Shown one piece after another: positions 18,601-47,329 of a DNA stretch of 63,934 nt. How positions within the stretch are numbered: position 1 is the stretch's first letter; each line of letters opens with the position of its first letter. Origin of the DNA: Vezdaea acicularis (taxonomy: Eukaryota); NCBI GenBank assembly GCA_026025075.1, contig JAPEUI010000094.1, positions 1 through 63,934 on the forward strand, in the 5' to 3' direction. A program made the position numbers and the translations under genes. The notes under the pieces were generated by a model. The model searched no databases. It had not been told where the DNA came from and was given only the letters and a program-made list of their open reading frames with translations.

Positions 18601-19186
18601 AAGGCGGATCCCCGTCCATGAGATGCGAGGATCATGGCCGGAAGTCGTGCCAGTGCGGGCTGCTGCCCCCAACCCCAACAGAGCTGGAGGGGGGGAACAT
18701 GGTTTGAAACGGGCCTCACCGTCATATCACGGCAGCTAGGGGCGGCCGTCGAGGCTAACGGGGCCCACGAGCGACGGACCGGCGAGATCAACGATCAACG
18801 ATCAGCGATCTGTCTCTCGATGAACCGGCGGAGTCTACGCCGTGCCATTGCCTTCCCATCCAATGTCCGTGCCATCACCAACAAGCCAGTCACATTAGGG
18901 CAGAGACGCGGCCGGACGGGCAAGGTCGCCGGCTTGCGGAATGGCAGGAGAGGGAGCTGGGACTTTGTTCGCTGGAGCCGCGCTTAAAGGAAAATGCGAG
19001 GGCCAAGCACGCCGAGGCAGGCTGCAGCTAGTCGCTCATTTGGCGGCGGGGCGGACAGGGGCCGCGTCGAAGCCCGTCTCGAGCCCGCTCACCCTAGGCT
19101 CGACCTGCCGGTGGAAATTGTCGGTGGAGGGCGAGCGTGGGCCGGGCGAGCGCTGGCGGAAAAAGAGATGAGTTGGCGTTGGAGCC

Positions 19187-19208
19187 GCTGCTGCTGCTGC
19201 TGCTGCTG
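19187..19208 (+). repeat. (CTG)n microsatellite, ~7 units
   Basis: gctgctgctgctgctgctgctg. Confidence 0.8.
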
Positions 19209-20099
19209 AATATTGAACACCGCCTCGAAGCTCGAACTCACCCCTCGACAAGCAGCCGACTGGGAGTTGAGACAGCATCCGCACCGGGTGTGCCTTCTGT
19301 TCCGTGCGGAGGGCCCGCTCAAGTCGAAGTTACCCGCGCGACGCTTGCCGCTTGCACGGCCTAACGCCGACCCCTGGCCCTCCCTTGCCCCTCCCCCCCT
19401 CCCCCCTCCCTGGCCGGCGCTGAACCCCCGTTTCGGTACCTGGCGCAGCTCGCGCACGCTGATGCGTCCTGTCCCCACACATTCCGCCAGCCTTATCCTC
19501 CCCTCCCACCCCCCCTCCACCCCGGCCGGCCCCATCGCTTTTTTTTCTGCCGCGCCCTCCGGAAAAAGTGCATAACTCGCTGTGTGACTCTCGCGACCTC
19601 GACGACCTGCACACGACGTGGACCCTTCTGCGACCGACATCTTCGCTCGTAACATCGAATCCAGGAACGTCAATTCGTGCGTCGACGTCATCCCGATTCT
19701 GCGTTTCGTCTGAGGGCCCCTCTCTCCGTCGCCGTTCAAACAACGAAGCGCCCATCCGCCACCGGACCCTCAAACACTGCACGTCCTTCTTCGCGATCCC
19801 CTCCGAAAACCCTCGACTTGCGCGCCCCGCGGGGATCCGGCAGCGATCAACCCCTCCGCCCGCCGCCAGCAATTGGGATCCTGTCGCAGCATCACACACG
19901 AGCCGACGGTGACCATGTCGAAACCGTGATCGATTGTTTTCCGCCGGGAGAAGAGCAGCGACGAGCAGAGGAGCAGAGACGGCGGGACAAGCGAAGACGA
20001 AAAAACACATCGCGCTGCGTCACCGGGCACGATCGCACGAGCTGTCATTCTCCGGCAGATCACACGGCTGCGTGCGCAAACGAGACGGTTATACGCAGC

Positions 20100-20140
20100 A
20101 AGCAGGCAAGCAGGCAGGCAGGCAGGCAGGCAGGAGGCAG
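20100..20140 (+). repeat. (GCAG)n-type microsatellite in the PLC1 upstream region
   Basis: agcaggcaagcaggcaggcaggcaggcaggcaggaggcag. Confidence 0.7.
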
Positions 20141-20707
20141 CAAGCAGCAAGCAACAAGCAGCAGCATCCAGCAGCGACGACCTCGCGCTCGCCAGCGCCC
20201 CCCCTTAGCCCGACTTCCCCTTCGGGCCTCTTGCATTGCGGGCTGCAGCGTCACCCAACATCGCCAGTCCACAACAATACGTCTCATGCCGAAACCGACC
20301 ACACATCTCTCGAGAGCCTGCATCGTCAGCATCCACTGCTAGGCACCGCGTGCGCCTCGACCCTTCCCTCCAATTGATCTCTTTGGTCCGTCCGTCTGCA
20401 CCCCGACTTTTCCTTTCTCACCACCGCCCGCCTTGATAGGCCCGCCAATTCCTCCGTGCGGCCGCGGGCCTGAGAATGTGTCCGTACACCAGAACCGCCT
20501 CCGTCGAATAGCCTCGATCCTACCTATTCCAACCAGACCTGCATCGTACGGCCGACGTCCGAGCACACACCCTCCCGCTTCCCTCCCGTTTGCCGACCTG
20601 GAGCTGGCTCCATCAGGTGTGGAGGAGATATCATAAAAACAGAAGACCCCCCGTGCTACACCACGGACGACTCCCAAGCAGAGTCAAGAATACACATCAC
20701 CGGCATC

Positions 20708-23700: not shown

Positions 23701-24007
23701 CTTTGTGCGCTTCACAGTGCGGAACTCGCACGATGGGCGCTCGTACGCGGACCGCAACGGCGCTTTGGCGACCTTTACCGCGAAATTGAGCAGTCTACAG
23801 GAAGGGTATCGACATCTGCCGCTGCTCGATAACAACGGCGAGAAGTTCATGTTCTCGACGCTGTTCTGCAAGATCAAGAAAGAGGAGATTGGCCCCGTCA
23901 GCCGCGAGAGCAACGCCGCGGCGAAGGTCAACTCCCTGAAACAGGTGGGGCGCAGCATGTTCCAGCGCACGCTGTCGACAGAGCGGAAGGCGACGCCTGA
24001 CGAGTGA
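20708..24007 (+). CDS. PLC1: Phosphoinositide-specific phospholipase C (PH, EF-hand, X/Y catalytic and C2 domains)
   Basis: Uninterrupted 1099-aa ORF. EF-hand DKNSDGYLDFTEF; X box YFISSSHNTYLLGRQ, CIEVDCWDG, SHGHT, PLIISLEVHC; Y box MRVYP...SSNFDP...QMVALNWQTYD; C2 region EVVSAQQLP...GYRHLPL. Confidence 0.97.
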   Translation: MAAATYNPTARVTAKAHDDAPPPPTAFARKPKPGVDGLVLLTITPASAGSTSTTPSPHDSDAETTNTSLQTSPDGPHEGISPVLPPPPLILPDAVTATPTTSAMNEAIAKGPGLMRRISRGAASKLTRGRTSSNAHKNRDHSSGPAVMRRQSDSTGKLENDATALDIDSDDDIYGATTDVACVDGARDGTVSPARGAPGSIIGIGPVIPSSLQNGTYMTKVTKRRRKILKFSIDDDSAKVFWDPTKSSKHFSIDEITDIRVGPEARNYREDAGISADTESRWFTILYTRERSKGRVHKFLHLITATETIMELWVSTLEDIRRHRMAMATNLAERGERSLGTHWRKEIAKLNANLPLSEEIEHLNFERVESLCRSLHINCSTGFLKQKFDKADKNSDGYLDFTEFKDFVKHVKEREDIIQVYADVAADAEKGIDINDFLAFLRDSQGVDIETNPLRWKAIFEKLARRSKSKTPSSSPIEEESSFLDVEAFAYFLSSAKLSPALVTGSRTTALDRPINEYFISSSHNTYLLGRQVAGESSTEAYIRALQQGCRCIEVDCWDGSDGQPSVSHGHTMTSSIPFVDCIDVIGKWAFISTPYPLIISLEVHCSPPQQERMTEILKEKLGDQLILEPIMANPFCLPSPEDLKNRILIKVKASDEPDNSLNQQSLPVGRTRRAFSSPLSRPVVLDNGNISPAPLVASPTPMSPVEKNPVSQFNGRAHIHGSTAASISSATEDSDGRETSLAREPKKKRQSSIVQSLGELGVYARGTRFKYDFHTAESKRHNHIFSLAERTFAKVCNSRDLKDELERHNMRYFMRVYPSNFRVNSSNFDPLTFWRRGVQMVALNWQTYDQPMQLNNAMFAAGNDRTGYVLKPLELRRKAHSMDVFPDGDSTSTTAKEKKLVAFSIEVVSAQQLPRAKGTNQDQGIAPYIELETFCADDKAKGVASGEGGMDASARNGMFGLGSPHRRRTKIVPSNGYSPVFHDKLTVRLETKFPSLVFVRFTVRNSHDGRSYADRNGALATFTAKLSSLQEGYRHLPLLDNNGEKFMFSTLFCKIKKEEIGPVSRESNAAAKVNSLKQVGRSMFQRTLSTERKATPDE

Positions 24008-24976
24008 TGAATGGCTTCTTGCGTCGTTGACACGGCTTCTACCTCTTCTCCATCTGCGGTTTCTCTCTCCTTTCCGCCCTCGTCTTTCTTCTCCCGAGTG
24101 CACGGGATTCTTCACATATATTCTCCGACACACCTGCATATCATCCATTTTCATCCTCCTCGTCCTCGTCTCCTCCTCTCCTCCAGCTATGACGACCAGC
24201 TGGTACTCAATCTCTTGAAGTAATATTTAGCGTAACGACCCTCCGGCTCCCCAAAAAAAAAAGAAAGACGCCGCAGGCTCGGAATCTTCCCCCCCCTTTT
24301 TCTACGCGGGAAACGCTGCCTTTTTCGCACGTGCGTGTGCGCATGTATGTATATCATTGATGACCTGCATTTAAGCGACAAACAGGACTCGCTTTTTTCT
24401 TTGGCTCTTTGGCTCTTTTGCTCTTTGCTCTTTGCTTCGCTTGGCTGGCTAACTGAACGGGGCTGACTGGCTGGCTGGGTTGAACTTTACGTGGCAGAAA
24501 GCGGAAATGGCTGGGCTGCTTTTTCTGGGAAGCGTCTCAAGGATCAAAAAATTCTCTGTTTTTTCTTATCCTTGAATTTGACCCCCTTTTTCAACTCGTG
24601 GAAACGGGCGTGGCGCAATTTTCTACTCGCTTGCATCGGGGGCTAGGGATGGAATGAGGGCTTTTCATGGCATTTTTTCGAACTGAGCTGGGCTGAGCTT
24701 TTTTGGCTCTGGGAGCTTTTGTCTTCTCTTCTTTTTTAGGGGGGGTTATGTAAGGGGGGTTTTACGACGTTTCTGAGATGGGAGGGGGTAGGGTAGGGGT
24801 TACTCTCGACGGCCGCTCGAAATGAGCCGAGCTGAGTCGAGTTGATGAATAGAAAGTTGGATTCCCATTAACCGCTGCACATACATGAACCATAACACCG
24901 CGCCCTTACCCCCTCCCTTCCTTTCCATGAACCACCCTTTTCCCAAAAACCAACCAACCATCATACACTCCCCCCA

Positions 24977-26524
24977 TCAACTCCCCTCCAACTCCCCCCA
25001 CAAATTATTCAAACTCTCCGCCAGCGCCGGATGGGCCCATACCGCATCCCTCAGCCGCTGCCAGGGCACTTTACCCATAATCGCCATCTGGACAATACTC
25101 ATCACCTCCCCCCCTTCCACGCCCAAGACGCTAAAGCCCAGAATGCTTCCATCATCTATATCCACCACAGCTTTCATCAGCCCGCGACTCTCATCGAGTT
25201 CTAAGGCGCGCGCGACAGATGTCATAGGCAGGGATGCGGTGCGGATGCGGCGGGAGGGAAAGGTGGCACGGGCGGTGTGTTCGTGGAGGCCGATGTGGGC
25301 GAGTTGGGGGTCGGTGTAGACGACGTTGGGGACGAGGCGGGTTTTGGTTGATAGGAGGGGAGAGGGAGGGGAGAGGAGGTTTGCTTTGAGGATGCGGTGG
25401 TCGTCGTAGGATATGTGTGTGAATGCTGGAGGACCCTTTGCGTCGCCGAGGGCGTAGATGCCGGGAATGTTGGTTTCGAGGTGCTCGTTGACGAGGATGT
25501 GGCCACGGGGGTTGGTGGCGATGCCGGCAAGGGGGAGGTTGAGGGAGTCGGTGTTGGGGATGCGGCCGGTGGCGAAGAGAATGTGAGAGGGGTTGAGGGT
25601 TGGGGGGGAGGTGGTGGATGTGGTGGTGGTGGTGGGTTGGTAGGTGAGGGTGAGGGAGGGGGGGGAGGTGGTGGGGCTTGGGGAGAGGTGGAGGGGGGAG
25701 GTGTTGAGGTGGACGTCGATGCCGTCTTCGCGCAAGATGGAGAGGAGGGCGGCGGTGAGGTCGGGGTCTTCGCGGGGGAGGAGGCGGTCAGCACGTTGGA
25801 AGACGGTGACTTCGCTGCCGAGGCGGCGGAAGAGCTGGGCGAACTCGAGGCCGACGTAGCCGCCGCCGACGACGACGAGGTGGCGCGGGAGCACGGGGAG
25901 TTCCATGATGGAGGTCGAGTCGAGGATGAGCTCGGGCGCGACGGAGTCGATGCCGGGGAGGGCGGGTTTGGCGGGGCGCTCGCCGACGTTGATGAAGATG
26001 GAGGAGCCGGTGAGGGTTTGCTCGGAGCCGTCGTTCAGCTGGACGAGGAGCGTCTTGGCGTCCTTGAAGGAGGCGCTGCCCTTGAGCAGGTCGACGCCGG
26101 CAGAAGTGACGCGGTGTTCGATGCCACTGCGGAAGGAGGTGATGAGGTCGCGCTTGCGCTGGAGCACCTTGGCTATGTCGACGGAGATAATGCCGTCGGT
26201 CCCGCCGGGGGTATGGATACCGTAGTCGGCACCGCGGCGGGTGTGGTAGGCGATGCGCCCGCTGGTTATCATGGTCTTCGTGGGGAGGCAGCCTTCGTTG
26301 ACGCAGCAGCCGCCCATGTGGGAGCGTTCGATCAGGGCGGTCTTGCGGCCGGCTTTGGCGAAAGCGCCCGCGAGCGGGTTGCCAGCTTGGCCTGAGCCGA
26401 TGATGATGCAGTCATAGTGGGTTGGGGCGGCCATTGTGGTGGTGAAATGCCGGTGGGGGGGGATATCAGGGGTAATTGGTCGATAGTGTAGCTGCTTGAG
26501 TATCTGGGAAGCACGCAGGAGCAT
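24977..26524 (-). CDS. Flavoprotein pyridine-nucleotide disulfide oxidoreductase, bacterial 'mercuric reductase-like' subfamily
   Basis: Intronless 515-aa ORF with a second ATG at 26434. FAD motif IIGSGQAG, redox-active GGCCVNEGCLPTK, NAD(P) motif VVGGGYVGLE, ATGRIPN, ALGD, AFTHISYDD and C-terminal HPALAE. No C-terminal Cys-Cys pair. Confidence 0.9.
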   Translation of the reverse strand: MLLRASQILKQLHYRPITPDIPPHRHFTTTMAAPTHYDCIIIGSGQAGNPLAGAFAKAGRKTALIERSHMGGCCVNEGCLPTKTMITSGRIAYHTRRGADYGIHTPGGTDGIISVDIAKVLQRKRDLITSFRSGIEHRVTSAGVDLLKGSASFKDAKTLLVQLNDGSEQTLTGSSIFINVGERPAKPALPGIDSVAPELILDSTSIMELPVLPRHLVVVGGGYVGLEFAQLFRRLGSEVTVFQRADRLLPREDPDLTAALLSILREDGIDVHLNTSPLHLSPSPTTSPPSLTLTYQPTTTTTSTTSPPTLNPSHILFATGRIPNTDSLNLPLAGIATNPRGHILVNEHLETNIPGIYALGDAKGPPAFTHISYDDHRILKANLLSPPSPLLSTKTRLVPNVVYTDPQLAHIGLHEHTARATFPSRRIRTASLPMTSVARALELDESRGLMKAVVDIDDGSILGFSVLGVEGGEVMSIVQMAIMGKVPWQRLRDAVWAHPALAESLNNLWGELEGS

Positions 26525-26886
26525 GCAGTACGAGTAAGCAAATATGCAGGCTTCTGAAGACGACCGATGACCAAATGATGAAGCAGACCTAGATCTCAGT
26601 GTGATCTAGAACTTGTCGATTGCCTTCCGTGGAGGATGGCATGTAGTCTCTTTAAGTAGTTACGGGACTCCGCGGTCACGGACTCGGCCTGTAGCAGTCG
26701 GGCCAATTGGCGATGAGACCGTTAAGCCTTACGGGTCGCTTCGGATCCAACCCCACTCAACCTGCACGTCTAGTTAGGCGAAGGTTAATTATTCAGCCTT
26801 ACTAAAATACTGCAGGCTACAGTAGCAGTAAAATCTCAAGTCGGGAGCTCGAAAGGATCATTAGACCTGCCGCCAGATTGGTCTAA

Positions 26887-28994
26887 TCACTTGGCCAAGA
26901 ACTTTTGGAATGCGGCCAACTCCACAACAACTCCACCCACAGCTTTTAGCTTCTTCCTTCCTTCCTTCTGCTTATCTAGCAGCTTCCTTCTCCTGCCGAT
27001 GTCGCTAGCATGTAGCTTCTGGAGCACGTCCTTGCGGAACGGCTTGATCGTCTCTCTAGCAACGATGCGTCTCCCAACGGCTGCCTGGATTACAATCTCA
27101 AACATCTGACGATCTACGTGCTCCTTGAACTTCGACACCCATTGCCTGCCCAGTCGATCAACCTGGCTAACATGCACGATTCGAGCTACCGCGTCGACAG
27201 GTTCTTTGTTGACCATCAGGCTTAGCTTCACGATCTTGCTTTTGCGGAAGCCAGCTTCTTCATAGTCAAGCGAGGCATATCCCTTTGTAGCTCCTTTGAG
27301 CTTACCGAAGAAGTCGTCGACTAACTGAGCCAGGGGAAGGGCATACTTGAGGATGACTTGAGTTGACGTAAAGTAGGTCAGCTCATTCTGTTCGCCACGG
27401 TTGCCCTCGCAGAGCTCAATGACCCGGCCAAGATACTCATCAGGAAGCGTGATGGTTGTCAGCACAAAAGGCTCTTGCAGCTCAGCTACCTTGTTAGTGA
27501 CCACATCGGCATCCGGAAAGTCAGCTGGGTTCGATATCGTAGTTTCCCGGCCGTCTTTCCAGACTATTCGAAAGGGTACCGAGGGAGGTGTGATGATGAC
27601 ACTCGCACCGTGTTCCTGTCGGAGGCGGTCTTCAAAGACGCTGCAATGCAGAGTTCCCAAGAAGCCTAGGCGCCAGCCGGCTCCGAGCGCGGACGAAGAC
27701 TCTTTTTGAAGAGTAACGCTACGGTCGTTTAGCGCGATCTGAGAGATGCTGTCCGAGAGATGCTCATAGTCGCTCTGGTTGACAGGGAAGGCGGCTACAA
27801 ATACCATGGCTTGAGGCTCCTCAAACCCGGGTAGTGCCTCAACTCGTGACGCTGTCGAGACATGCGTGTACGTATCTCCGATCTTGGCATCGGCACTGCG
27901 CTTCATGCCTGGATTGAAGAAGACATAGCCCACTTGCCCAGCACGTAGAATATTTTGAGGCGTTTCAAGGGGGTACATGATCCCAACTTCTCCGACAGTA
28001 TATTTCAGCCCTGTGTACAGAGATACGACGCTATCGCCGGCTTTGATCGTTCCGTCAAAGACACGGACCAGCAGGATTACACCTTTGTAGTTTGAATACC
28101 AGGAGTCGACGAGGAGGATTTTCAGCGGTGCAAGATGGTCGCCCGTAGGCCTTGTTAGGGTCAGTTATGCCTCGAGCTAAATGGAGGAGGGGACTAAGGG
28201 GCTTGGAGCGTACGCTGGGATATTTTCAATCACGCTCGGCAAGATCGCCTCCACATTGAGCCCGGTCTTTGCAGAAACCAAGACTGCCTTCTCTGTATCT
28301 AGTTCAAATGTATTTCTCATCTGCTCCAATGCTCTTTTGGAATCCGCGGATGGAAGATCAATTTTGTTGATAACGGGCACAAGCTTCAAACCCTCCGCGA
28401 ATGCCAGATAGAAATTTGCAACTGTCTGTGCCTGAACACCCTGGCTGGCATCGACCAGCAGTAATGCACCGCCACAGCTAGCATAGCTGCGCGAGACCTC
28501 TGCACGGAAGTCAACATGTCCAGGGGTATCGACAAGGTGCAGGAGGTAGTCGAGGCCACGGTAGTTGTATATCATGCTGCACGTCTGTGCCTTGACGGTA
28601 ATACCGCGCTCGCGCTCGACATCGAGTTTGTCGAGGATCTGCTTATTACCGCCAGCGGCAATGGTCCCGGTGAGTTCAAGGAGACGGTCGCTGACTACGG
28701 CATGCATTAGCTTCCGAGGCCCAAAAAGTACGTCATAGGGCATTTCATACGTGTGGATTTGCCATGGTCAACATGAGCAACAATGCAAAAATTGCGAAAC
28801 CTCTTTAGTGGTATTGCTTCAATTCTTCTCTCGACGTCGGTCGTTGAGGTTGCTTGCGCAAAGCTCCTCACGGGGGTAGAAAACCCCTGGAGATGCTCTT
28901 GTATGGCTCCGGACGGGCCATCTCGGAGAGATCGCGGAAATCTTGAGACATTCCAAGGTCTGAGCCATCTACTATACAGGTGGCATGGTCTCAT
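26887..28994 (-). CDS. GUF1: Mitochondrial translation factor GUF1 (EF-4/LepA)
   Basis: Exons 28994-28751, 28694-28214 and 28150-26887. [58 protein letters not shown]-terminal RKDVL...[12 protein letters not shown]. Arg-rich presequence. Confidence 0.97.
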
Positions 28995-33869: not shown

Positions 33870-34060
33870 TTCATATTGGCAAAATTATCGGTAAAACAAA
33901 CTATAAAACAACTATTTCATGAAAGCGAGAATCGCGTCTGTGAACTTTCTATACTGTCGGAACTACCCCTCCACTGCTTATCGAGATGACCAGCTCACCT
34001 GTTCTTCCTCATATAACTCACGATAATTCTTCCTACCCTCCTTCTCCAACCCTGGCAGCC

Positions 34061-35843
34061 ATGTCAGTGCCCTTACCTCCGCCGTTGTCTTCACCTTACC
34101 GGTCATCCAAGACGCTCCCTTACGAATTGCGGCAACACTGCTTGATCTATTTCGAAGAAGAGCTATGTAAGGAATATATACCTCTAGCTGTTCTAGCTAC
34201 TGATGAATATAATAGATACACAGGCCTTGACCCTTTTGCTGGATCTCCTGATAGCGGGCACGTCCTATCCATGCACAAACCCAGCCTATACCCCTCCCCC
34301 CCAACATCTTTCTCTAGCTTCGACTCTCCTCATTCATCCTTCTGTGACAACTCGCGCTATCTCAATCGACCGTCGGGATGTCTCTATCGTTTCTCTACGC
34401 CTACTGCGATCTGTATTGAAACAAGTTGGCCCAGTCAATGCTAGCCTGGACGTAGCATTTGCTTTCACAACACCAGCTTTCAACTCACGGCGCAATCGCA
34501 GCAGCACGACTCGTCGAGGCAGAGATACGGCGTCCGAGCATGGTGGTACGAAGGGCGAGACGGATTCTAACTTGATCATGTCAAACATTGCAAGGCAAGG
34601 CGGGATTTGGGCGAAAGCGGATGATTTCTGGCATTGTGTTGGGTGGGGCTTCAACTGCGCTTCTAAGCATCCAAAAAGATGGACACAGTGGAAAGTGTGG
34701 CTAGAATTCATGGTAGGAGCGCTAGAAGACGATTGGACAGAACGGTGGCGCCAGTATAAAATTGCGTTGGAAAGCAAATGGCGTATTGATAGGAAGATAA
34801 ATGGCGATCGGGATGGCTCTGAGAATTCAGAGGATGGCTCAAGGCTACTGCAAGAGAGCATGATTGCTACATATATATCTTGCGCCCTTCGACAATTTGG
34901 AGGTCCTCGCCGACTAGTGCGCTCTCTCTTCGCTGACGGGTCAGCCAACTCTCTAAACGAATTCGGCGAAATCTTCTCTGGCGAGACAAAGTCGGCGCCT
35001 CAGGATTCCTCGACTAGACTTTTAACCCCACGTATTCTGCCGGACGATCCTAGTGAAGGAGAAGAGTCAAAAATTGACATCAATGCAGACCTCTATGGTG
35101 ATTATCTGGACAATCGGCGTTCCTCATCCTCATCTCCCGAGCCAAATGTCCAAGTCACAACCTCTGCCCCCTTCACTGAGGGCTTGGAGCATTCTTCTCC
35201 ACGTTTTAGTGGGCCGGATATCGGCTTAACTCACCCTCTTCGTTCGCGTCTTATGTCCCTGATTAGCCTAACATCCTTCCATTTTTCCGCCTTGGAACTC
35301 TCTTCAGCGCAGGCCTCTTTCGAGATACTTCCCCTTGATGGGTTCTATAATGCGTTGATGGAACACGTACGACCCCTCCCACTTCCCGCTTTCTTTCTCT
35401 TCGCTACGCACACCCAACTTCGCGCCCTTCATTCGGATGGCTGCATCATGTTGTGGGAAGGGCTTCTCGAGGTTCTATTACCTGCATCAGCGCCAATACC
35501 ATCAAGCGTTCGTACGAAAGATAGAGGCACAGAGGAGAACGTACTCACACAAAATGTGCTAGAGACCTGTTACCTCCCGTTTCCTAGTAACAACAATAAT
35601 CTAATTGATAATGCAAAAGTTTCCCTACTCCTGGAAGGTTTAGTAGGGGTTCTCTTTGCGAGACGAGTCTTGGTCTGGACAAAACAGCTACAAGATGCTC
35701 TCGAAAACGGAATCGAGACAAGAATTAAGAAGGCTCACGACGGAAGGAGGAAGATGGGTATTGAGGAGAGTAGAATATGGCTGAGAGACAGCGCCGAGAG
35801 ATTAAGAGGTTACATGAGCATGTTACAATCGGGAGTGAGCTAA
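34061..35843 (+). CDS. Conserved fungal hypothetical protein (possibly Nse5-like Smc5/6 subunit; tentative)
   Basis: Exons 34061 (or 33986)-34166 and 34216-35843. Conserved-looking blocks PPPQHLSLASTLLIHP and DDFWHCVGWGFNCASKHPKRWTQWKVWLEFM. The gene is well supported; the family name is a guess from memory. Confidence 0.75.
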
Positions 35844-36129
35844 GACATAGTCGCTACAAAAAAATGCTATTGTAGGCTATCAACGGCTCATGATACATCT
35901 TTCACGGCTACTACATTGAATGTAATGAACTGGAGGCAAGATAATCTCAAGCAATGTGCAACAATGGACTCAAAGGCAGCCGATGAGCAGATCAGCAGGG
36001 ACGAGGAATCTCTCCTGAAAAGCTTACAGCTCAGGTCAATATTTGCCTAAATATAGAGAGCTAGCCTGGATATGAGACATCCACGAAGAACGTTTGAGTC
36101 ACCACTTTGACAAACATCAAATCAAGAGA

Positions 36130-37163
36130 CTATCTCTCCTCGCCAACACATCTAGTAATCTCAACGCCATCCTATAGTCGTTAGTATGGAACCATGATAG
36201 TGATCTTAAGTATCTTACCGGAATTCCTGTAGGCTCAAAACTTTTGACGAGCTTGCTTTCGTAGACGAGAAATGGATTGCCACGGATCTCTGTGTCGCCA
36301 CCATCTTCCCTCTCGTGACCAACCAGTGGATTCTCAACCCAACTGGCATGCTTCTCTCTGTACTTAGTGCTACCATCACCTCCTATTGAATACGACTTTT
36401 TCTTTTCGGTTACACTACTTCTTACGTACTCCAGATAGGGGGGATCTAGTGATTTAATTAGCTTCAGAAAGCGGACATTTTGAAGGGACAATTCCATACT
36501 TCCTGGTTTGATCACGTTGTCTGCAGCTAGCACAGTGCCTGGCCTCACCAATCGCAAATATTCACACAGCTTCAGATCCGTGAGATAAGCGGGCTTGTGG
36601 TGGTCTAGAAACAAGAGATCGATGTGAAGTAGTCTACCATCCATATGAAGGCGTTTCAAGCTCTCACTACTTGGTCCGACTTCGACCTGCACAATGCCTT
36701 GCAGTCCAGCCAAGTTGACTAAGGAGCTGACAACAGCTGCAAATTCAGGGCTTCTCTCGAGCGAGTAGTATCGGGTTCCACCTGCGGCCCTCAGTGCATT
36801 ACCAAAGAGCACCGCTGAATACCCAACATAGCCTCCTAATTCAACCATTATCTGAGGTTTGACCTCTGCGATGAGATCTGTAACAATTTTGCCCTTGTCT
36901 TCGCCTACATTCATAAGGTATTTCTTCTTTCGTCCATATTCATCTATTGCTTGCAGTACTCTTGTAGGGGATCCACGAATGTCGGCAAGAGAGGGATGAT
37001 TGTAGACGAAATGAAGAAGCTCGATCTCACGGCCATCATCATACTAATCGAAGAGTTCAGTAATGTTCCCCTTGCAGCTCCGTTGCAATTAAAAGTCGGA
37101 AAACGAACATACGTACACGTCTTCTTGTGAAGCGTAGGCTTTCTCCTGATTGAAGTCTGACAT
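36130..37163 (-). CDS. Catechol-O-methyltransferase-like O-methyltransferase (mycosporine O-MT, MysB-like role)
   Basis: Spliced gene reading MSDFNQEKAY...DDGREIELLHFV...YLMNVGEDKG, VELGGYVGYSA, LFLDHHKPAYLTD, ADNVIKPGNPPY, DGVEITRC. Divergent from DDGS. Confidence 0.9.
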
Positions 37164-38304
37164 CCTGATATAGTGGTATTGATACAGCCGTGATCTCAGC
37201 AGTCTGGGCAGCTTGAGCTGAGTAAAAAGTTTATGGGCTATAACATAAGCATGTCAAGCGATAGATAACTAGGGAAAGCAGCTTTACGGCATTTCCCTGC
37301 TCTAGTCTGATAACCTTCAGGCCCGTGCCATTATTATTGGCACATACAGGGGTGTAGCGGAGACTATCAGACGTTGCTCAGCATTCTCATTCTTGTTTCC
37401 AATTTTGCCCTCTGACTATCATTTCATGCTGTGCTACATACTTCGTGTGGAATCACGCCATCTTCGGGTTGCACGCAGCCTTTAGACCTGTCTAGTGCAT
37501 TTGGCAATAGTGTTGAGATCATCACTATGCACAGGCTGCAAGCTAAGTAATACATGGGTCAAGAAACCCGCAGTTTGCATCAAGTCATAGTGGTTGTGAC
37601 ATCAACTCGCAACATCGGAACCCCAGATTCTGACGACATGACACTGTCGTCCCCCGTAACGCTAGTGATGCCAAGAGTCAAATCCCTGTCAGACATTGGT
37701 CGGCGGATCTGAGCGATCTGATGAGGTTAACTTAATCTTCATCGAAATCAAAGGCCGATCGGTAGAACCCATTGTGATTCGAAGAACAACGCATACACAG
37801 AAGCACGTACTAGGAAACTTCTAGCGCGCCTTCTCCAAGATAGTGCAACGATTCTGAATGCCAGCGTAGCAGCCATATTCGATACGAGATTATGATGTTC
37901 CTGGAGATCATCTCCTGCATGATGAAGACTAGGGAGACGCCGGCTTTTTGCCCTCAAAGCCTAACCGCATGGATGCCATCGTCCTCACTTGCCTGCTGTT
38001 CTTCTTGTGAGGTGCTACAGGTGCGGGAAAGGGCTTTGCACTAGTCCACAGCGGATACTAACTTAGGAACTGCGCTCATTGATCCGTCATCCACTCAGGG
38101 CTTCGACCTACCGTTTCTAGACTGCCCATGGGCTCTAGAGGCGACATCCTTGCGGGACGGCTCTATAATAGAGCCTTCGTGACGTTCGTAAGCTCTAGCG
38201 TATGTGGAAGGGCTTGAGTACAGTTTATCAAACTATTCGAGGCTTTGTTGTCAAACCTTAGCCCAAACGACTCAGTCACAGTCTACATATCTCATCTCGT
38301 CAAG

Positions 38305-39918
38305 ATGTCTGATATGCAGGCATCAGTTTTAGAGACGAAGAACGGCTTCCATGTATCTGGTTACGAGAAAATCGACTATGGCTTCCAGTTTATCAGCGGC
38401 ATCTTCGACATTGCCAATCCTGATTTGGCTAACCAATACAAATCTTGGGGACGGGTCTTGTGAGGACTCTTAACTGGTGACGTTAAGATTAGCTGCTAAC
38501 ATCATCTTCGTCAGGGCTGTCACGGACTTGAATGTATTTAATATATACGGGGACGAGATGGAAGCATACTTCAAGCAATATGGCCTGAAGTTGAAGATCC
38601 ACAAAACCAAGATTGGCGAGAAAGCCAAAACTATCGATACCTTCTTAAGTATTGTCGACTCCATGACGGAGTTTGGCATCTATCGAAAGGTACTCAGAAG
38701 TATCCTGAGCTTGCTTCACAAACAGAGCTTACATTCACTAGGAGCCAGTCTTAGTCGTCGGTGGAGGACTCGTCACAGACGTCGCCGGGTAAGTTTAAAA
38801 GCAAGGCCAGTGAGATCCATTTCGAGGCTGATCCCTTAACCTCCAGATTCGCCTGCGCAGCGTACCGCCGTAACACCAATTTTATTCGAATACCTACGAC
38901 TGTAATTGGCTTGATCGACGCTTCAGTCTCCATAAAGGTAGCGGTCAATTATGGTAACTATAAGAACCGATTAGGTGCTTATCATGCGCCAATAATGACA
39001 TTCTTGGACTTTAATTTCCTCAAAACATTACCAATTGCCCAAGTGCGTAACGGCTTTGCAGAGTTGATCAAGATCTCCACCTGTGGCCATCTTGAGACCT
39101 TCGATCTTCTGGATAAGTATTGCGAAAGCCTCATAGAGTCAAAGTTTGGGCGCAAGGATGGCACACCCGCAGCAATTCGCGAAGTCGCGGATAAGATCAA
39201 TAGAAGTGGTATATATGAGATGCTGAAGCTAGAGACGCCAAACCTTCATGAGATTGGGCTTGACCGAGTCATTGCCTATGGTCATACGTAAGCAGCTAGT
39301 TCATTGTAAATGGAACCGTTAACTAAATCGTGTCACAGGTGGTCGCCGTTGCATGAGCTGACTCCCCAAACCCCTTTGCGCCACGGCCATGCAATCTCGA
39401 TCGATATGGCGTATTCCGCTACCTTAGCAAATAACAGAAAGTTGATCACTGACACTGAGCATTTCCGGATATTGAATCTCTTCTCCCGTGCAGGTCTGTC
39501 CATGGATCATCATCAATTCGACGAAGAGATGCTCGCCAAAGGTACTGCTGCTATCATGAAGACCCGTGATGGTAAACTTCGTGCCGCTGTGCCAAGTCCA
39601 ATCGGAACTTGCACATTCTTGAATGATGTAAGCGCCTCCGAGATGAACGACGCGCTCAGACGGCACAAACATCTCATGCAGGAATACCCTCGTCAGGGAG
39701 AGGGATTGGAAGCTTACGTTGATTCCTCTGATACCGGTTACACGGAGAACGGAAAAGAGATTGAGGCAACTATAAAGACGAATGGTGTTACGAACGGCGT
39801 CAATGGTCACAAATTCAGCAATGAGCCTAGCAAGTCCATGGGTGTTGATAGTGCCGGACTCCTCAATAGGACGAATGGTATCATCAATCATCCGGTAGAA
39901 GGAGTGGTCGTACCTTAG
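38305..39918 (+). CDS. Demethyl-4-deoxygadusol synthase (sedoheptulose 7-phosphate cyclase, MysA-like)
   Basis: Five exons. [85 protein letters not shown]...VIAYGHTWSP (DDGS-type PNLHE signature), [11 protein letters not shown]. Confidence 0.95.
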
Positions 39919-40279
39919 AGAGCAGTTTTAGCATAGTATTATATAGGCCTTCCGCTGCGTTTGAAGCCTATAGAATTATGGCATATTGAATGGACCTTCA
40001 GGTGATTGCAAGATGCATTCTCGCGAAACAAGAAGCTCGTCTTTGTCTTTCGCGACGTGCAAGATTCGTACGACCGCAGGGCAGAAGGTTTTTCTCTTTG
40101 GCCCACTAAAGTCACAACAACTCATTTGAGAAAAATCGCGATCGAATGAAAAGTCCCAAGGGCTGGTGCAGCTTCTATGTGCGCTCTCTTAAAATGACGT
40201 CATATTTATCTAGGTTCTCCACTCTGAATATGGCTATAAGGGTGACTATCCCGCGTGAGGGCGCTGGTAGACTGCAAAT

Positions 40280-41776
40280 ATGGCCAAAAACGACCTTCCT
40301 GTGCTCTCATCTGGGATGAACAGCTTCGTTCTTCTGATTTTGTCCCTCATCTTTCTTCCCTTCGACACCTTTATCCTTTTTTATAGCTATGCCCTTCGCC
40401 CTCTATTCTCGCGGCGTTCTCAACGCGCCAGTGCGCTCCGTGACCCCGCTTTCACCCCACGAACAGTTCTTATTACAGGCCTTTCCATGGCGAAAGGCCT
40501 TGCACTCGCGCGCGCTTTCCACAACACGGGCCACTCCGTCATTGGCGCAGACTTCGAAGACTATCGCATCCCTGTAAATGGTCGCTTCTCTCGATCTCTC
40601 AAAAGATTCTACAAATTACCACGCCCTACTGCTGGAGAAAGTGGAGGGCTAAAGTACATCGAGAGTCTCCTATCGATAATTACGAGTGAAAGTTGCCAGC
40701 TCTGGGTGTCGTGCTCAGGCGTAACGGAGGCGAGCGAAGATGGGGAAGCGGCCGAACTGATCAAGCGATTGACGAGGTGCAAGGTGGTGCAATTTGAGCG
40801 CCAATTGGTGGACACCCTACATGAGAAGCAATCGTTCATAGAGAAGACAAAAGCGCTGGGCTTACAGGTCCCAGAGACGCATCCCGTGACGTCAACAGAG
40901 GATGCCCTACGGCTCCTTGAGAGCAAGAAAGACGAAGAGCGGTACATCCTCAAAAGCGTGCACTACGACAATGCAACGAGGGGCGATATGACACTCCTTC
41001 CTCTTCAAACGCCGGCGAAGACAGAGGGGTACTTGTCAAAGCTAGATATCTCACTGTTGAACCCGTGGGTCCTGCAGCAGTTCATTTCAGGCAAGGAGTA
41101 TTGCACGCACGCTCTCGTCCTGAAAAACGAGATCAGGGCGTTCGTTGCATGTCCCTCCAGCGACCTGCTAATGCATTATCAAGCGCTCCCAGTGGACTCC
41201 GGACTCGCCCAATCGATGCTAGCGTTCACGAAAGAGTTTATGAGAGGAATCGAAGAAGAGATGACAGGACATTTGAGCTTTGATTTCTTAGTGAGGGAGA
41301 AAGCGACGAAGAATGGGGTCGTGCAAGTCTTGTATTGTATCGAGTGTAACCCAAGAGCGCATACTGCTGTTGTGCTGTTTGAAGATGTAGCAGACGTTCT
41401 AATTAGGGCTTATATGGATCTATTGTTGCCAGAGTTACCTTTGGACGATGGATTTGTAGGGAATCCGGCGTTTCTCAAGGAACCGAGGAGTAAGTATTGG
41501 ATTGGCCATGATTTGGTCTCTTTCGTGTTACATCCACTACTAAAGCTATTGGCTGGACGTGGTAGTTTCAAGCAATTCCAAGAAAGCATGGGCGTCTTTA
41601 TGGAGCATGTTTTATTTTGGAGGGATGGTACTTTTGAGCTCTGGGACCCCTTACCTTGGTGGGCGCTGTACCATATCTATTTCCCCGCGCATTTCCTATT
41701 GGCGATCTTTACAGGCAAAAGGTGGAGTAGAATAAATGTGAGCACTTCGAAATTCTGGTTACTGGCTGATAGTTGA
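40280..41776 (+). CDS. ATP-grasp amino acid ligase (mycosporine synthase, MysC-like)
   Basis: Intronless 498 aa. Hydrophobic N-terminus, VLITGLSMAKGLALARAF, GRFSRS, LHEKQSF, YILKS, WVLQQFISGKEYCTHA, TGHLSFDF, IECNPRAHTA, YWIGHDL, WDPLPWW. Confidence 0.92.
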   Translation: MAKNDLPVLSSGMNSFVLLILSLIFLPFDTFILFYSYALRPLFSRRSQRASALRDPAFTPRTVLITGLSMAKGLALARAFHNTGHSVIGADFEDYRIPVNGRFSRSLKRFYKLPRPTAGESGGLKYIESLLSIITSESCQLWVSCSGVTEASEDGEAAELIKRLTRCKVVQFERQLVDTLHEKQSFIEKTKALGLQVPETHPVTSTEDALRLLESKKDEERYILKSVHYDNATRGDMTLLPLQTPAKTEGYLSKLDISLLNPWVLQQFISGKEYCTHALVLKNEIRAFVACPSSDLLMHYQALPVDSGLAQSMLAFTKEFMRGIEEEMTGHLSFDFLVREKATKNGVVQVLYCIECNPRAHTAVVLFEDVADVLIRAYMDLLLPELPLDDGFVGNPAFLKEPRSKYWIGHDLVSFVLHPLLKLLAGRGSFKQFQESMGVFMEHVLFWRDGTFELWDPLPWWALYHIYFPAHFLLAIFTGKRWSRINVSTSKFWLLADS

Positions 41777-41883
41777 TGAAGGAAAGGAGTGGACTAGATC
41801 CCGATCTTTTCAAGTAGGTTATGTATATACCTATCAATCATCGCTCGTGCGGCTTTTCAAGTCGTTCGGCTGCCATGGGTTCT

Positions 41884-44800
41884 TTAGCCAACCTCTTCGT
41901 TGATTCCCATGCTTCTCTCCATCCACCGATAAATGAGTTTAAAATGTTCCTCAGTAATCGGGCCGACTTTCTTGAGCGTTGGTGCCACCTGCTCGGTATA
42001 TCTGGTGTCAAATGTTAAGTTTGTCTTTGCTGCTGCGGAGGATATATCGGGAGCGTAGCTCTGCCTCCAAAGATTCAATAATCTAAGGCTCGGATGACTT
42101 TCTCCTCTCGCTTCCATCGACTTTAGCCTCTCAACCCAAATTGATGGCGGGACGATGTCGAAATTCAGAGGCGAAAGACGACGAAGCCACGCAAGGAGGT
42201 CGACCCATCTCGCGGTTTTGTCATTGTTAAATAGGTGGTACACCTGAATTTTCGATTCATCTTCGCTTCCGAGCTTATGTCCACTGCCATGAGTGGCAAT
42301 CTCGAGTATTGCGGCTGCTGCAAGATCTATCGGAAACCATGCCAATACCTTATTCCTCAAGTTAATTAGAGTTCGCCCTCGCGGCACGTTGATTAGGTAT
42401 CGACTAACATCATCAAGGTCTGGTAAAGACCTGGTCCTGGTCATACTCGAGAGCATTAAGGGCCAAGCTTCATTAGCGTTCCAAATCCCTTTCTCGGTAT
42501 CTCCACAAAGCTGGCCAACCCTTACTATTACTATACGGCCACGTAGACGAGTGCTGTTTTGTGCTTGGTCACACATTTTTTCCGCAACCCATTTTGAACG
42601 TGAGTAGCCAAGGCTTGATGCAGATTCAGGATCGTTGTAGATTTTTTCCAACACGAGGTTATTTGGGGAGGCATTTATCACACTGGCCACAGATGAGCAG
42701 AATAAGAAGGCTGGTGGCTTTTGTCTTGGGGATTGAAGAGAGAAGTTGATAAGGTTTTGGAGGCCGCGGATATGATCTCTTACGAAGCTCTCAAGCGGCA
42801 TGCTAAAGTTAACTGCCCAAGCCGCCTAAAGTAGAGAAGCTATTAAGTAGTATGATAGCTCAGACTTATGGAGATTGAACTTACGTGAATGACAAGAGTT
42901 GCTTGGCTTAAAATATCGTTGTGCTGATCATTACTTAGACCTAGCCTCGGGTCCACAATATTTGCCTCGATGCAGATGACTCGATCGCTCGAAGGGAGTA
43001 ACGGGGGTTTTCCTCTTGCCAGTAGACTTCTGCAAACCCTGGTTAATGGTGAGCTCTCTCCTTTCTGGCGCACAAGGCAGTAGACTCGGTGTACATCCTC
43101 TCGCATCCGCAGCAAGTCTAGAATGTATGCGCCAAGTGCGCCTGTAGCGCCTGTCAGAATCTAATGACTGTTACCATTACTTCACTCGTATGGCAAATCT
43201 TCTATGTCTTACCACAGTCTCACCCTGCGGCTCGTGGATAGCTCCATTGGCGATGATTCCAGAATGCTCCGAGCTGTCAAATTTGCCATAATCTTCAGCT
43301 AATCTTTTCATAAGCTTTACATTATCCGATTTGGATGGAACACAATTATCTCGAAGACGTAAGAAATATGTTATCAATCTACTCATACTTAGTATCAAGA
43401 GAATCTACACAAACACAGAACTACATACCGACGGAGGTTTACGTTATCATATACGACATTCAAGGGTAGTATATTTATGTGCAGTTTCTGCTGCCATGCT
43501 TAGCTCCATGGAAAATACTGATTAGGAATTATCTCTTGCCTTTTGAAGATTCGTGCGTATTCTGATGCATACAATCGAATCGATCCCAGCTAAGAAGAAG
43601 TCTGTATCCATATCTAGATCATGTATTCCCGAAGCAAGTCGTACTGTCTCGCAGACAGCATTCTCGATAGCTTTATCGGTCATCGGATCGAAGAAAACCT
43701 CCTGGGGGTACGCATCCGATTCTTTCAGTCTTTCGTAGGCCTGCGAGATCTCTTCTTGAAATCTCTCCTCTACAGCGCCACGCAGAACCGTTCCCTTGCT
43801 ACTCTTCTCGTAGAGCAGTTTCTCAACTGGAAGAGCGATGAGCATATTTCGGGCAAGCCTTGCATGGTGCTGGCTCTGTCTATTTAAAGCTTCCACATTA
43901 GGCCAGATAGCTGAAACGAGCTCCTCATCAGTGAGTCCTGCTCTGGCCTGCGATCGAAACAGGAGGGCGCCAGGAAAATTTCGGCCATTTCCAAAGAGAA
44001 CGACGTCGTCGATCAGCGACAAGGTACCAAGAGCAGCTTCCAACGGAGCAGGATCGAACTTTTTTCCCGTGACTAAAGTTAGTTGGGAGTCGGCTCGAGA
44101 GTGATACCGCCAAGCATTTGGAATAACAGGATGAGGGATAAATAGGTCTGATGTAGCAAAAGACCCATCCGTACGGTTGGTCTTAGCCTATTTTGAAGTA
44201 TAAGTCGAGGAATGGCTAGCTCTCACGAATTGCTCACCAAAAACGGCCAATCTGGTAGCACGACCAACTCGAATGTACCATCACCTTGTGGCTCAAAGGC
44301 TAGGGACCTCGTTCCTTGCGGACAACGAAGGTACTGCCACTCAGTATCATGGCTGTAATCGCGGTGAGAACACAACAGGACTTATCAAAGGTGAGTAAGG
44401 AGAAAATCTCAGAGGTTGTAGAATACACTGACAGCCACATTCTATGCTGCCAAACCTCGAAACTAAATTTATCTTCTCTGAGACGAGGTGGTCTCCTAGT
44501 GACGCAGGTAACGCAGCGCCTCCTACACCGACAAGGTCCATTTGCTTTAGCAATGCCATACCAGCGTCATCTTCGGCCATCATTTGCAGGACATACGGCA
44601 CTGAGGAGAAGCACACTATTTCTCTATCAATCTTCGCTTCTTGAGCGGCCTTCAAACATCTGATGATATTTGTTGACGTGATAGGCATCCTCCCTGGAAA
44701 AAGCCAGATCATAGCGTCGCTTGTCCAAGCTCGAAATACGTCAGCGGTACCCCCGTGATAGAGAGGAGTCGTCGTAAAAGATGCGGTCTTTCGCTGTATG

Positions 44801-45648
44801 CTTGGGAGACATGGCAGTGCCCCAACTGCTGCCCTGTGGGTCTGGGGAATTGGTTTCGGGAGTCCAGATGATGTACCAGAGGTGTGATGCAGATAAGCGA
44901 CATCAGTCTCTTGTGCCGTATAGGTGGGTCGCCATGCTATCGTCCCTTGTGGAGACGTCTTTAACGTGTCTTCAGTGGGAGCGGGAAGAGAAATGGCTTT
45001 CAAAGGTGCAAGCAATAAGTCGTAACCATCCAAAGATGCTAGAGCAAAAGCATCGTGGGCTAGCTTGCCGTAAGAAGCATCGAAGAAGAGAATATTGATG
45101 GTACATGTCTTGCATAACTGTAAGACTGCTTTCGGCTGACATTGAGGCCTATCAGGCTAGTGAGTTCAAGGGTTTGGCATATTGATGTGCATCAGATGCT
45201 ATAAATTGGAAGACAAACGCTATGAGCAGGGTACTGAAGCCAAGTCTCAATAGACCCAGCCACGAGAGGAGAAACTCTGCAGAGCTAGGACATAGCAGCG
45301 CCACGCAACAGGACTTTATATCCACGTTGCGATGCTCGACTGCCACTTGCATCAGGTCATTAAGCTGTTCAGCCGTCGTCAAAGAAGCATCGCGAAGCTG
45401 CTTGAAGGCTGGAAAATCTATTAGGGTAAATCAGATATTCGAGAGGTCTTCAGATTACTCAAAACACGTGCATCCCATTTGCCACCTTCAGTGTGTGAAG
45501 GATATGGTAGACCGACCGCCGGAGTGGATGGACATTTTTGAGCTTGAAAGTCTAAGAATTCGTTGACAGTAGAGTATTTGTGGGGGCTCTGTTTATTTAG
45601 AACAGCAGCGTGACCGAGAGTGCAAGTGAAATAGTTAATTTCATCCAT
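41884..45648 (-). CDS. NRPS-like enzyme with A-T-R architecture (carboxylic acid reductase type)
   Basis: About nine exons splice into one frame. A domain AYLHHTSGTSSGLPKPIPQTH, PLYHGG, SRFGSIECG, FATSDLF, TGKKFDP; carrier domain DFFLAGIDSI; reductase ILTGATGALG, IHAAWAVNF, GYSRSKWVAE, RVGQLCGD. Confidence 0.92.
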
Positions 45649-47329
45649 CGTCTCTATACAAATCTGTATATATTGCGAAGGTATTATAGAGCAGTGCAAG
45701 TTGCACTCCTTGACTGGACTCCAAAGATGACGCCTACATTACCTAATTACAGCGCCAACATACGAAGGATACCCCTTATCCTTTGGTCCTCTGGTGCAGC
45801 CGTTAGCCAAAACAAGCTCTTAAATAGCATGTACTCCGCTGGATCGTTTGCTCCAACGCTGGTTAAGCTGAATCATAAGGCTTAGAATCATTGATCCGAG
45901 TAGTTTGCTCGCTTTGTAAATTTTTGACCAATCAGAATCGATTTCGCCCCAAAACCCTGTCTTCTCTTGGGTTAGAAGGCGAAGAAAGTGTACGTGTAGG
46001 TCAGCTGAATGACAAGTCCCAACGCAGAATGTTTGCGCGAGTCATGCAGGATAGGAGCAGTAGGCGCCAAAGGAAGATTCACAGATAGAAGTACTCGATA
46101 GATGTTTATGTTGTTGATTACTCGAAATCTATGCTAAGTGCTTCCCCATGGTTCTATCTAGGCACGGCGACATCATGTTGGCTCGGCGCAGAGCCTGTTT
46201 GCAACACGCACTGGACTTGGTACAGCGGTTTCAGGGAAGGACCAGCTGGGCGTATTGGCTTCGTCTTACAGCTAAGCCCGGTCTGCTTAGTCAGCCTGCT
46301 TTTGGGACTGGTACAGCCCAAGTAACGGGCTGAGTAGATTGGTGACAATTTCACGACTTCACGCCAATTTTAGCTAGAAAGAGTATACTAAGTCATCCAA
46401 GAGTTTTCGAGCAATATTCACCAAGGGTAGAAGAGACGAGAAACCATTAGTGTCATAAACCTAGTCCACCAGTGAAGGTGGTTGCTTTGGTCGCTCGCTC
46501 ACTCGCCATATGGCTTGTGCATACTTGTACTTGTGCCTTCGATGTTTTGAGCAGGGACGAAATATTTGAATGAAGAGGGCAATTTGACCAAATTCTTTGT
46601 GTACCTCAAAAGTCTTGATAATCCTTTAGACGTCTGCTCCAGTATTCCGAGACTCCTTATGAAAATGATGAGCCCCAGACAAGCTTTGACTCTGAACATA
46701 ATAGCTTGGTGAAGAAATTGAGACAAATAGAATAATGAAAGCTCCACCAAACCATTAGCCTCATGCTTAAATAGCACAGCTAGTCACTAGCTGCTCTCTG
46801 AGTATTATGGCCGGTGCCTCAAGTCCCGTTTCCGCCATAACTCGGACGTCTGAGATGACTATACATCGAGATTCTGTTAGTATGATTGGGGTCACCGCTA
46901 CTATTTCCCTGATGAACTGCAGGGTCGAAGTAGCAACGCTTGCATGCGATGATGAGTGCCCCCTTGTCATAACAAGAATTGCAATGAGTGCTACGTAATG
47001 TCAATGGCATGCGATCGACAGCTCTCCCTGTAAGATTCGAACATAGAGCTGACTACAAGGACATAGTCAGCTGACGTAAATCACGGTAAGCATTGCAGGA
47101 ATAATGGGTTGTCGATAGTATGGGGTCGTTTTCGAGCAAGCGAGACATAGAAATTTCTGTTTCAAACCATGCTTTGCAGGATCTCGCAAAATTGTACCAA
47201 ACATCTCATAGCACCACAAACCCGCGCTTAAAAAACCCCATACAAGTGAAAATGAAAACTGTAGCGCATAGGCTAACTGATCCGTAGCATTCGCACTATA
47301 GTAAAGCCAGGGCTCTGATAAGGCGACTT

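What the first reader, a model, noticed from the sequence alone, without database searches (positions are those of the whole stretch)
36130..45648. Complete four-gene fungal mycosporine (UV-sunscreen) biosynthetic cluster
Seen: O-methyltransferase (-), DDGS (+), ATP-grasp ligase (+) and NRPS-like reductase (-), contiguous and apparently intact within 9.5 kb between unrelated genes. Known: DDGS plus O-MT make 4-deoxygadusol from sedoheptulose 7-phosphate, and the ATP-grasp enzyme attaches an amino acid to give a mono-substituted mycosporine. No D-Ala-D-Ala-ligase-like or A-T-TE enzyme for di-substituted MAAs is present, so an oxo-mycosporine is predicted. No glycosyltransferase or transporter is visible in the cluster.
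Basis: partly seen in the sequence, partly recalled or inferred. Interest (0 to 1): 0.8.

Follow-up and report, generated by a model that had tools for sequence, protein, structure and literature searches.

The report
Lichen fungus sunscreen gene cluster
A lichen-forming fungus carries an intact set of the three known genes for a natural UV-absorbing compound (mycosporine), plus a neighbouring reductase gene that may carry out a finishing step not yet tied to any enzyme; the cluster type itself is known.

Summary
Four intact genes lie at 36130-45648: a COMT-type O-methyltransferase (287 aa), a cyclase (465 aa), an ATP-grasp enzyme (498 aa) and an A-T-R carboxylate reductase (1090 aa). A database record names the ATP-grasp protein as from Vezdaea acicularis. 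The cyclase is a DDGS: it has all three diagnostic residues and groups with cyanobacterial MysA (100/100). The ATP-grasp enzyme is a MysC homologue. The three-gene core is proven in Phaffia and common in ascomycetes, so a mono-substituted mycosporine (about 310 nm) is very likely. The fourth gene is less certain. Its orthologue sits within 10 kb of the ATP-grasp gene in only 4 of 47 non-redundant related loci (2 of 15 with enough flank). It does so in several gene orders and lineages, and in other genomes it lies 8-219 genes away. Most likely it reduces the amino-acid carboxyl toward the amino-alcohol of glutaminol/glutamicol/serinol-type mycosporines; this is inferred, and Phaffia's three genes reportedly suffice in yeast. 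No polyketide synthase was found in this 19 Mb assembly. Verdict: new member of a known kind, with one testable open step.

The parts
36130..37163 (-). O-methyltransferase of the catechol-O-MT type, 287 aa; exons 37163-37113, 37043-36500, 36445-36219, 36171-36130
   Evidence: Gene model; PF01596; best solved relatives are COMTs, 5ZY5 at 133 bits, against 28 bits for the cyanobacterial O-MT 3CBG; 25% identity to Nostoc mysB; D164, K167, D192, N193 align with the COMT metal and catalytic positions (roles recalled)
37164..38304 (.). Divergent intergenic region (1141 b) between O-MT and DDGS, probably a shared promoter
   Evidence: Sequence; divergent O-MT/DDGS recurs in many loci and in Phaffia (PMC10057719); function inferred
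38305..39918 (+). [quoted passage not shown]
   Evidence: 5TPR 181 bits against 4P53 98 and DHQS 60 or less; E255, A269, T348 match MysA E254, A268, T347; tree 100/100 with Nostoc mysA
40280..41776 (+). ATP-grasp ligase, MysC homologue, 498 aa, single exon
   Evidence: Model pLDDT 91 with an ATP-grasp fold, top matches L-amino-acid ligases; 31% over 436 aa to the gene after mysA-mysB in a Nostoc mysABCD locus, E 2e-66; no Pfam hit
41884..45648 (-). NRPS-like A-T-R carboxylate reductase, 1090 aa, 10 exons (45648-45459, 45408-45219, 45148-44433, 44380-44238, 44187-43540, 43490-43429, 43378-43213, 43160-42885, 42825-42409, 42348-41884)
   Evidence: PF00501, PF23562, PF00550, PF07993; carrier Ser617, A10 Lys544, TGATGALG at 708, Ser842/Tyr871/Lys875; 157 of 157 invariant columns kept; acceptors of introns 1 and 5 could shift by 9 and 3 bases

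Best explanation
An intact, vertically inherited ascomycete mycosporine locus. Step 1: DDGS cyclises sedoheptulose 7-phosphate to desmethyl-4-deoxygadusol (shown for orthologues; family tested here). Step 2: the COMT-type O-MT methylates it to 4-deoxygadusol (shown in Phaffia; inferred here). Step 3: the MysC-like ATP-grasp enzyme joins an amine, probably glutamine, glutamate or serine, to give a mono-substituted oxo-mycosporine absorbing near 310 nm (shown in Phaffia; the amine is not known here). Step 4 (inferred only): the A-T-R enzyme adenylates the amino-acid carboxyl of the mycosporine, loads it on Ser617 and reduces it with NAD(P)H to the aldehyde or alcohol. This would give the glutaminol, glutamicol or serinol forms typical of fungi; a general reductase may finish the aldehyde-to-alcohol step. 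I put steps 1-3 at about 0.93 and step 4 at about 0.6.
For: DDGS-diagnostic residues and tree. The best plasmid matches of both the cyclase and the ATP-grasp enzyme fall in one Nostoc mysABCD operon. The three core genes lie together in 20 of 47 non-redundant locus groups. The A-T-R orthologue lies beside the core in four further groups (L038, L077/79/83, L085, L091), which with the window give four different arrangements. All five fall in one 64-row clade (support 95, FastTree), and the window groups with Caeruleum, Pycnora and Candelina. The orthologue is 16-38 genes from the ATP-grasp gene on the same contig in four genomes and 8-53 accessions away in five Hortaea pairs. The assembly holds only two clear reductase-domain enzymes, LYS2 and this one. 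Fungal mycosporines often carry reduced amino acids (PMC4665425, passages). The A domain has His258 in all 50 orthologues where amino-acid NRPSs have the alpha-amino-binding Asp (the correspondence is recalled), which fits an N-substituted acid as substrate.
Against: Only 2 of 15 groups with at least 3 kb of free flank carry the A-T-R within reach. In Aureobasidium pullulans it is 212-219 genes away. Phaffia's three genes gave a product that co-migrated with mycosporine-glutaminol in S. cerevisiae, and the authors propose direct ligation of glutaminol (PMC10057719 section 2.3, HPLC co-migration). Same-chromosome retention can reflect ancestry without a shared function. No metabolite, RNA or enzyme data exist for this organism. 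The window allele has Cys306 in place of a near-invariant Tyr.
Confidence: 0.6

Rival explanations
1. Three-gene mycosporine cluster plus a bystander. The A-T-R is a conserved carboxylate reductase of another pathway that has stayed near the cluster since a common ancestor; local shuffling sometimes places it adjacent.
For: 13 of 15 informative locus groups lack it within reach; 212-219 genes away in A. pullulans; three genes reported sufficient in yeast (PMC10057719); a Gfo/Idh/MocA gene also recurs beside the O-MT in 10 loci, so recurring neighbours need not be pathway genes.
Against: It lies within about 3 kb of a core gene in five lineages and four gene orders, while other neighbours are not shared across those lineages. 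The chemistry it offers is what reduced fungal mycosporines need.
Confidence: 0.22
2. The A-T-R acts before ligation: it reduces free glutamine, glutamate or serine to the amino aldehyde or alcohol, which the ATP-grasp enzyme then attaches to 4-deoxygadusol.
For: The Phaffia paper proposes that the ATP-grasp enzyme incorporates glutaminol directly (PMC10057719). MysC is recalled to activate 4-deoxygadusol rather than the amino acid, so it would not need a carboxyl group.
Against: The A domain lacks the usual alpha-amino-binding Asp (His258; recalled correspondence). Non-reduced mycosporine-glutamine, -glutamate and -serine are known from fungi (PMC4665425), as expected of intermediates.
Confidence: 0.13
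3. The cyclase is an EEVS or DHQS, or the locus is decaying and makes nothing.
For: A few private amino-acid changes in the window copy (DDGS 73; A-T-R 53, 306, 612); no RNA evidence.
Against: DDGS residues at 3 of 3 diagnostic sites; a separate DHQS on contig C55; all frames open; conserved in a relative about 92% identical.
Confidence: 0.05

Closest known systems
Phaffia rhodozyma MYC cluster (DDGS-OMT-ATPG; PMC10057719: abstract, sections 2.1-2.3 and passages read)
   Same: Same three enzymes of similar size (477/284/500 aa against 465/287/498); divergent DDGS and OMT; same DDGS signature stretch; glucosyltransferase not in the cluster.
   Different: Here the order is OMT(-) DDGS(+) ATPG(+), and an A-T-R reductase follows 107 bases downstream; an ascomycete, not a basidiomycete; product untested.
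Cyanobacterial mysABC plus mysD or mysE (shinorine; PMC10666671 passages; Nostoc locus L095)
   Same: DDGS 55% and ATP-grasp 31% identical to the Nostoc mysA and mysC genes.
   Different: The O-MT is COMT-like, only 25% to mysB. No MysD was found. The NRPS-like enzyme ends in a reductase rather than a thioesterase domain, so it cannot be filed as MysE and a di-substituted product is not expected.
Hypoxylaceae 'myc' NRPS-like clusters (PMC8403587, passages and supplement search)
   Same: NRPS-like gene clusters assigned to unidentified mycosporine-like compounds; a Xylariaceae protein falls in the same A-T-R clade.
   Different: The passages give no gene content or reductase function, and I did not see those loci.
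Fungal A-T-R carboxylate reductases (CARs); PDB 8AEP, 5MSC
   Same: A-T-R architecture with PF23562; best solved matches are reductase domains and CARs.
   Different: A separate conserved orthologous clade; scores far below the cut-offs of bacterial CAR and LYS2 models; substrate unknown.

Membership tests
DDGS (MysA) | Glu254/Ala268/Thr347 instead of EEVS Leu267/Asp281/His360 (PMC10666671) | tested here: met
   E255, A269, T348 aligned to 5TPR and 4P53
DDGS (MysA) | Groups with MysA, not with EEVS or DHQS | tested here: met
   8-row IQ-TREE, 100/100 with Nostoc mysA; 55% against 34-37% for three other SH7P cyclases and 25-26% for DHQS-type rows; small sample
DDGS (MysA) | Converts sedoheptulose 7-phosphate to desmethyl-4-deoxygadusol | not testable with these tools
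   Needs an assay
MysC-type ATP-grasp ligase | ATP-grasp fold and homology to MysC in a mys operon | tested here: met
MysC-type ATP-grasp ligase | Identity of the amine substrate | not testable with these tools
   No solved MysC among the matches
Fungal mycosporine cluster | DDGS, O-MT and ATP-grasp genes adjacent and intact | tested here: met
Fungal mycosporine cluster | A-T-R reductase as a constant member | tested here: not met
   4 of 47 groups, 2 of 15 informative groups; a recurrent neighbour, not a constant one
Fungal mycosporine cluster | Production of a 310 nm mycosporine | not testable with these tools
   No metabolite data
Cyanobacterial MysB-type O-MT | Close kinship to MysB | tested here: not met
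   25% over 148 aa; COMT-type instead. It works like MysB by position and by the Phaffia genetics
MysE (A-T-TE) / MysD (Ddl-like) | Thioesterase end domain, or Ddl N-terminal domain | tested here: not met
   The C-terminal domain is PF07993; PF01820 has no match in the assembly; the 7 PF07478 matches lie on other contigs and were not examined further
A-T-R carboxylate reductase | Adenylation motifs, carrier serine, SDR-type GxxGxxG and YxxxK | tested here: met
LYS2 aminoadipate reductase | TIGR03443 above cut-off | tested here: not met
   34 bits here; the true LYS2 on C58 scores 1530

The most novel reading that the evidence does not exclude
The A-T-R belongs to one conserved orthologous family across filamentous ascomycetes that is the dedicated, uncharacterised 'mycosporine reductase'. 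It would be the ancestral fourth gene of the cluster, since drifted away in most lineages. A GT8 glycosyltransferase found inside or beside two other clusters would be the missing glucosyltransferase. In this small lichen genome, where no polyketide synthase was found, the cluster may be the fungus's only sunscreen pathway.
Probability: 0.5. Interest if true: 0.55.

Novelty: new member of a known kind. Interest (0 to 1): 0.33.

Why it matters
Fungal mycosporines mostly carry amino alcohols, but in the papers I could search no enzyme has been assigned to that reduction. A compact locus with all four genes makes a three-gene versus four-gene test simple and could complete a sunscreen pathway of biotechnological interest. 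It also bears on which lichen partner makes mycosporines, a question left open in PMC9318770 (passages): here the fungus has the genes. The core pathway itself would surprise no specialist.

Tried and rejected
The single-protein metagenome scan found no relative; the alignment scan did. The prokaryote genome scan gave one locus, a fungal-type cluster in a bacterial record. A homologue search from the Endocarpon protein did not return the named black-yeast proteins I wanted for gene-distance counts. Pfam and PDB sequence searches did not identify the ATP-grasp domain; the fold search did. Two wrong intron choices (O-MT donor 37116; A-T-R acceptor 44353) gave stops and were dropped. The deposited protein's spliced C-terminus (P0001) was not adopted, because the unspliced frame keeps the family's invariant N486, V487 and T489. 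Words shared by the three upstream regions gave no convincing motif and had no control. No RNA holder listed. A one-frame Pfam scan of the C255 region gave nothing. Balskus and Walsh 2010 and Miyamoto 2014 are not held; they may already mention the fungal reductase, and I could not check. Ten paper searches listed no study of this reductase's function or of mycosporines in Vezdaea; most subscription papers are outside the library. Earlier findings were not open. No complex prediction was run.
Full report
Source and anatomy. The window is a whole contig (C310) of an 18.9 Mb, 315-contig assembly. [quoted passage not shown] Splicing by coordinates gives four open gene models: O-MT 37163-36130 (-), 287 aa; DDGS 38305-39918 (+), 465 aa; ATP-grasp 40280-41776 (+), 498 aa; A-T-R 45648-41884 (-), 1090 aa, with nine introns of 49-70 bases, one GC-AG. 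The A-T-R model matches a profile of 50 orthologues from position 2 to 1072 of 1073 and keeps 157 of 157 invariant columns, which supports both the splicing and intactness. Four of six listed public runs were laid on 35000-46900: three moss metagenomes of one study hold near-identical DNA, and X5 holds a relative about 92% identical with the same gene order.

The cyclase is a DDGS. Its main exon scores 181 bits against Anabaena MysA (5TPR), 98 against the EEVS ValA (4P53) and 60 or less against DHQS entries; the last exon scores 134 against 47. PMC10666671 (passages) names three residues that separate MysA from EEVS; reading the alignments with the 34-residue offset of the 5TPR chain, the window has all three in the MysA state: E255, A269, T348. 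In an 8-row tree it pairs with a Nostoc mysA at 100/100. The fungus has a separate DHQS-type gene on contig C55.

The ligase and the methyltransferase. The 498-aa protein has no Pfam match, but its model (pLDDT 91) matches ATP-grasp structures, L-amino-acid ligases first. Its best plasmid match and that of the cyclase lie in one Nostoc locus reading cyclase, O-MT, this homologue, Ddl-like gene, at 31% over 436 aa. It is therefore MysC-like. The O-MT is of the catechol-O-MT type and only 25% like mysB. No Ddl N-terminal domain was found in the assembly, so an oxo-type product is expected.

How constant is the fourth gene? An alignment-based scan kept the best 80 of 120 metagenome loci; with L091 they form 47 groups at 90% ATP-grasp identity. 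Twenty groups show all three core genes and four show the A-T-R; of 15 groups with at least 3 kb free on both sides, two do. Flanks reached at most 10 kb from the ATP-grasp gene (6 kb for L091). The arrangements differ: ATR(+) DDGS(-) OMT(+) ATPG(+) in L077; ATR(-) DDGS(-) OMT(+) ATPG(+) in L091, and in L038 without an O-MT match; DDGS(-) OMT(-) ATPG(+) GT8(-) ATR(+) in L085; OMT(-) DDGS(+) ATPG(+) ATR(-) here. In a FastTree of 126 rows (hits of 900-1250 aa, 14 labelled proteins, four loci and the window; shorter and longer hits left out), all five fall in one 64-row clade with support 95. That clade also holds proteins of Xylariaceae, Oculimacula, Lachnellula, Cladophialophora, Alternaria, Hortaea and Xylographa. 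The window groups with Caeruleum, Pycnora and Candelina, which fits vertical descent. Accession numbers and locus tags put the two genes 16-38 apart on one contig in Pycnora, Caeruleum, Candelina mexicana and Xylographa pallens. Five Hortaea pairs are 8-53 accessions apart, A. pullulans 212-219 tags apart, and A. subglaciale 200 or more. The linkage is thus old and recurrent but loose. It is evidence of a shared history and only suggestive of a shared pathway.

Mechanism. Steps 1-3 follow from Phaffia, where deleting each gene abolished mycosporines and the ATP-grasp mutant accumulated 4-deoxygadusol (PMC10057719 sections 2.1-2.3). The fourth enzyme has intact adenylation, carrier (Ser617) and reductase (Tyr871, Lys875) motifs, and resembles carboxylate reductases. 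It is not LYS2, which lies on C58. Fungal mycosporines include serinol, glutaminol and glutamicol forms beside their acids (PMC4665425 passages), which calls for a carboxyl reduction. I infer reduction after ligation, because the A domain has a constant His (50 of 50 orthologues) where amino-acid NRPSs have the Asp that binds a free amine (recalled). Against this, Phaffia's three genes alone gave a peak co-migrating with mycosporine-glutaminol in yeast, and most ascomycete clusters lack the gene nearby.

Genome context. Searches for ketosynthase and acyltransferase domains returned three and two matches. The three ketosynthase matches read, by my recall of these families, as a mitochondrial-type ketoacyl synthase, fatty acid synthase alpha and a thiolase. 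The two acyltransferase matches were not opened; one is a 2126-aa frame on the fatty acid synthase contig. No polyketide synthase was seen, but the assembly is incomplete and the counts are lower bounds.

Known or new. The three-gene fungal cluster is known and tested. NRPS-like clusters for mycosporine-like compounds were noted in Hypoxylaceae (PMC8403587 passages; the supplement search added nothing, one file cut). Ten searches found no test of the reductase; two key papers were not available. Other papers seen as passages only: PMC3252866, PMC3360786, PMC13157890, PMC7826186, PMC4426668, PMC12904256, PMC3083659, PMC9318770, PMC11195213, PMC13616976, 10.1101/2025.07.21.665953. Verdict: a real, intact, fairly ordinary member of a known cluster kind; its value lies in making the open reduction step easy to test. 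Interest 0.33.

Noticed in passing
L085:12721-13764 and L058:2967-4151: A GT8 glycosyltransferase (PF01501) lies directly beside the ATP-grasp gene in two unrelated loci (2 of 81), in L085 between it and the A-T-R gene: a candidate for the unknown mycosporine glucosyltransferase. The own genome has only a 34-42% match on contig C314.
   Followed up: partly
L013:4177-5049 and L018, L020, L023, L025, L065-L067, L069, L076: A Gfo/Idh/MocA oxidoreductase sits beside the O-MT in 10 of 81 loci; either lineage synteny or a helper reductase.
   Followed up: partly
L091:2-7500: A record titled as an Alphaproteobacteria genome holds a fungal-type four-gene cluster whose reductase groups with black-yeast-like proteins; probably fungal contamination of that bin.
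   Followed up: partly
G000 (own genome), contigs C247, C293, C48, C175: No polyketide synthase seen among ketosynthase and acyltransferase matches, unusual for a lichen fungus; a probable multi-module NRPS lies on C255.
   Followed up: partly
window 38578, 43592, 44612, 45492: All four listed coding differences shared by the other runs change a residue; at A-T-R 306 and 612 the other runs carry the family's consensus residue. Private mutations or assembly errors in the window copy.
   Followed up: partly
window 41735-41800: The deposited protein P0001 ends with a spliced tail, whereas the unspliced frame keeps the family's conserved end motif; probably an annotation error.
   Followed up: yes
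window 15001-27000: GC rises to 0.50-0.65 against about 0.47 around the cluster; the stretch includes a phospholipase C gene (20474-24007) and a pyridine-nucleotide disulphide oxidoreductase (24977-26605).
   Followed up: no
window 33944-35843: The left neighbour is an ascomycete protein of no known family; one atlas cluster with a 36% share of Nse5 scored 0.92, a lead only.
   Followed up: partly
L023, L046, L047, L068, L037: In some loci the ATP-grasp gene is separated from, or rearranged against, O-MT and DDGS, so even the three-gene core breaks up.
   Followed up: no
L095:6611-12511: A complete mysABC plus Ddl-like locus lies on a Nostoc plasmid.
   Followed up: no
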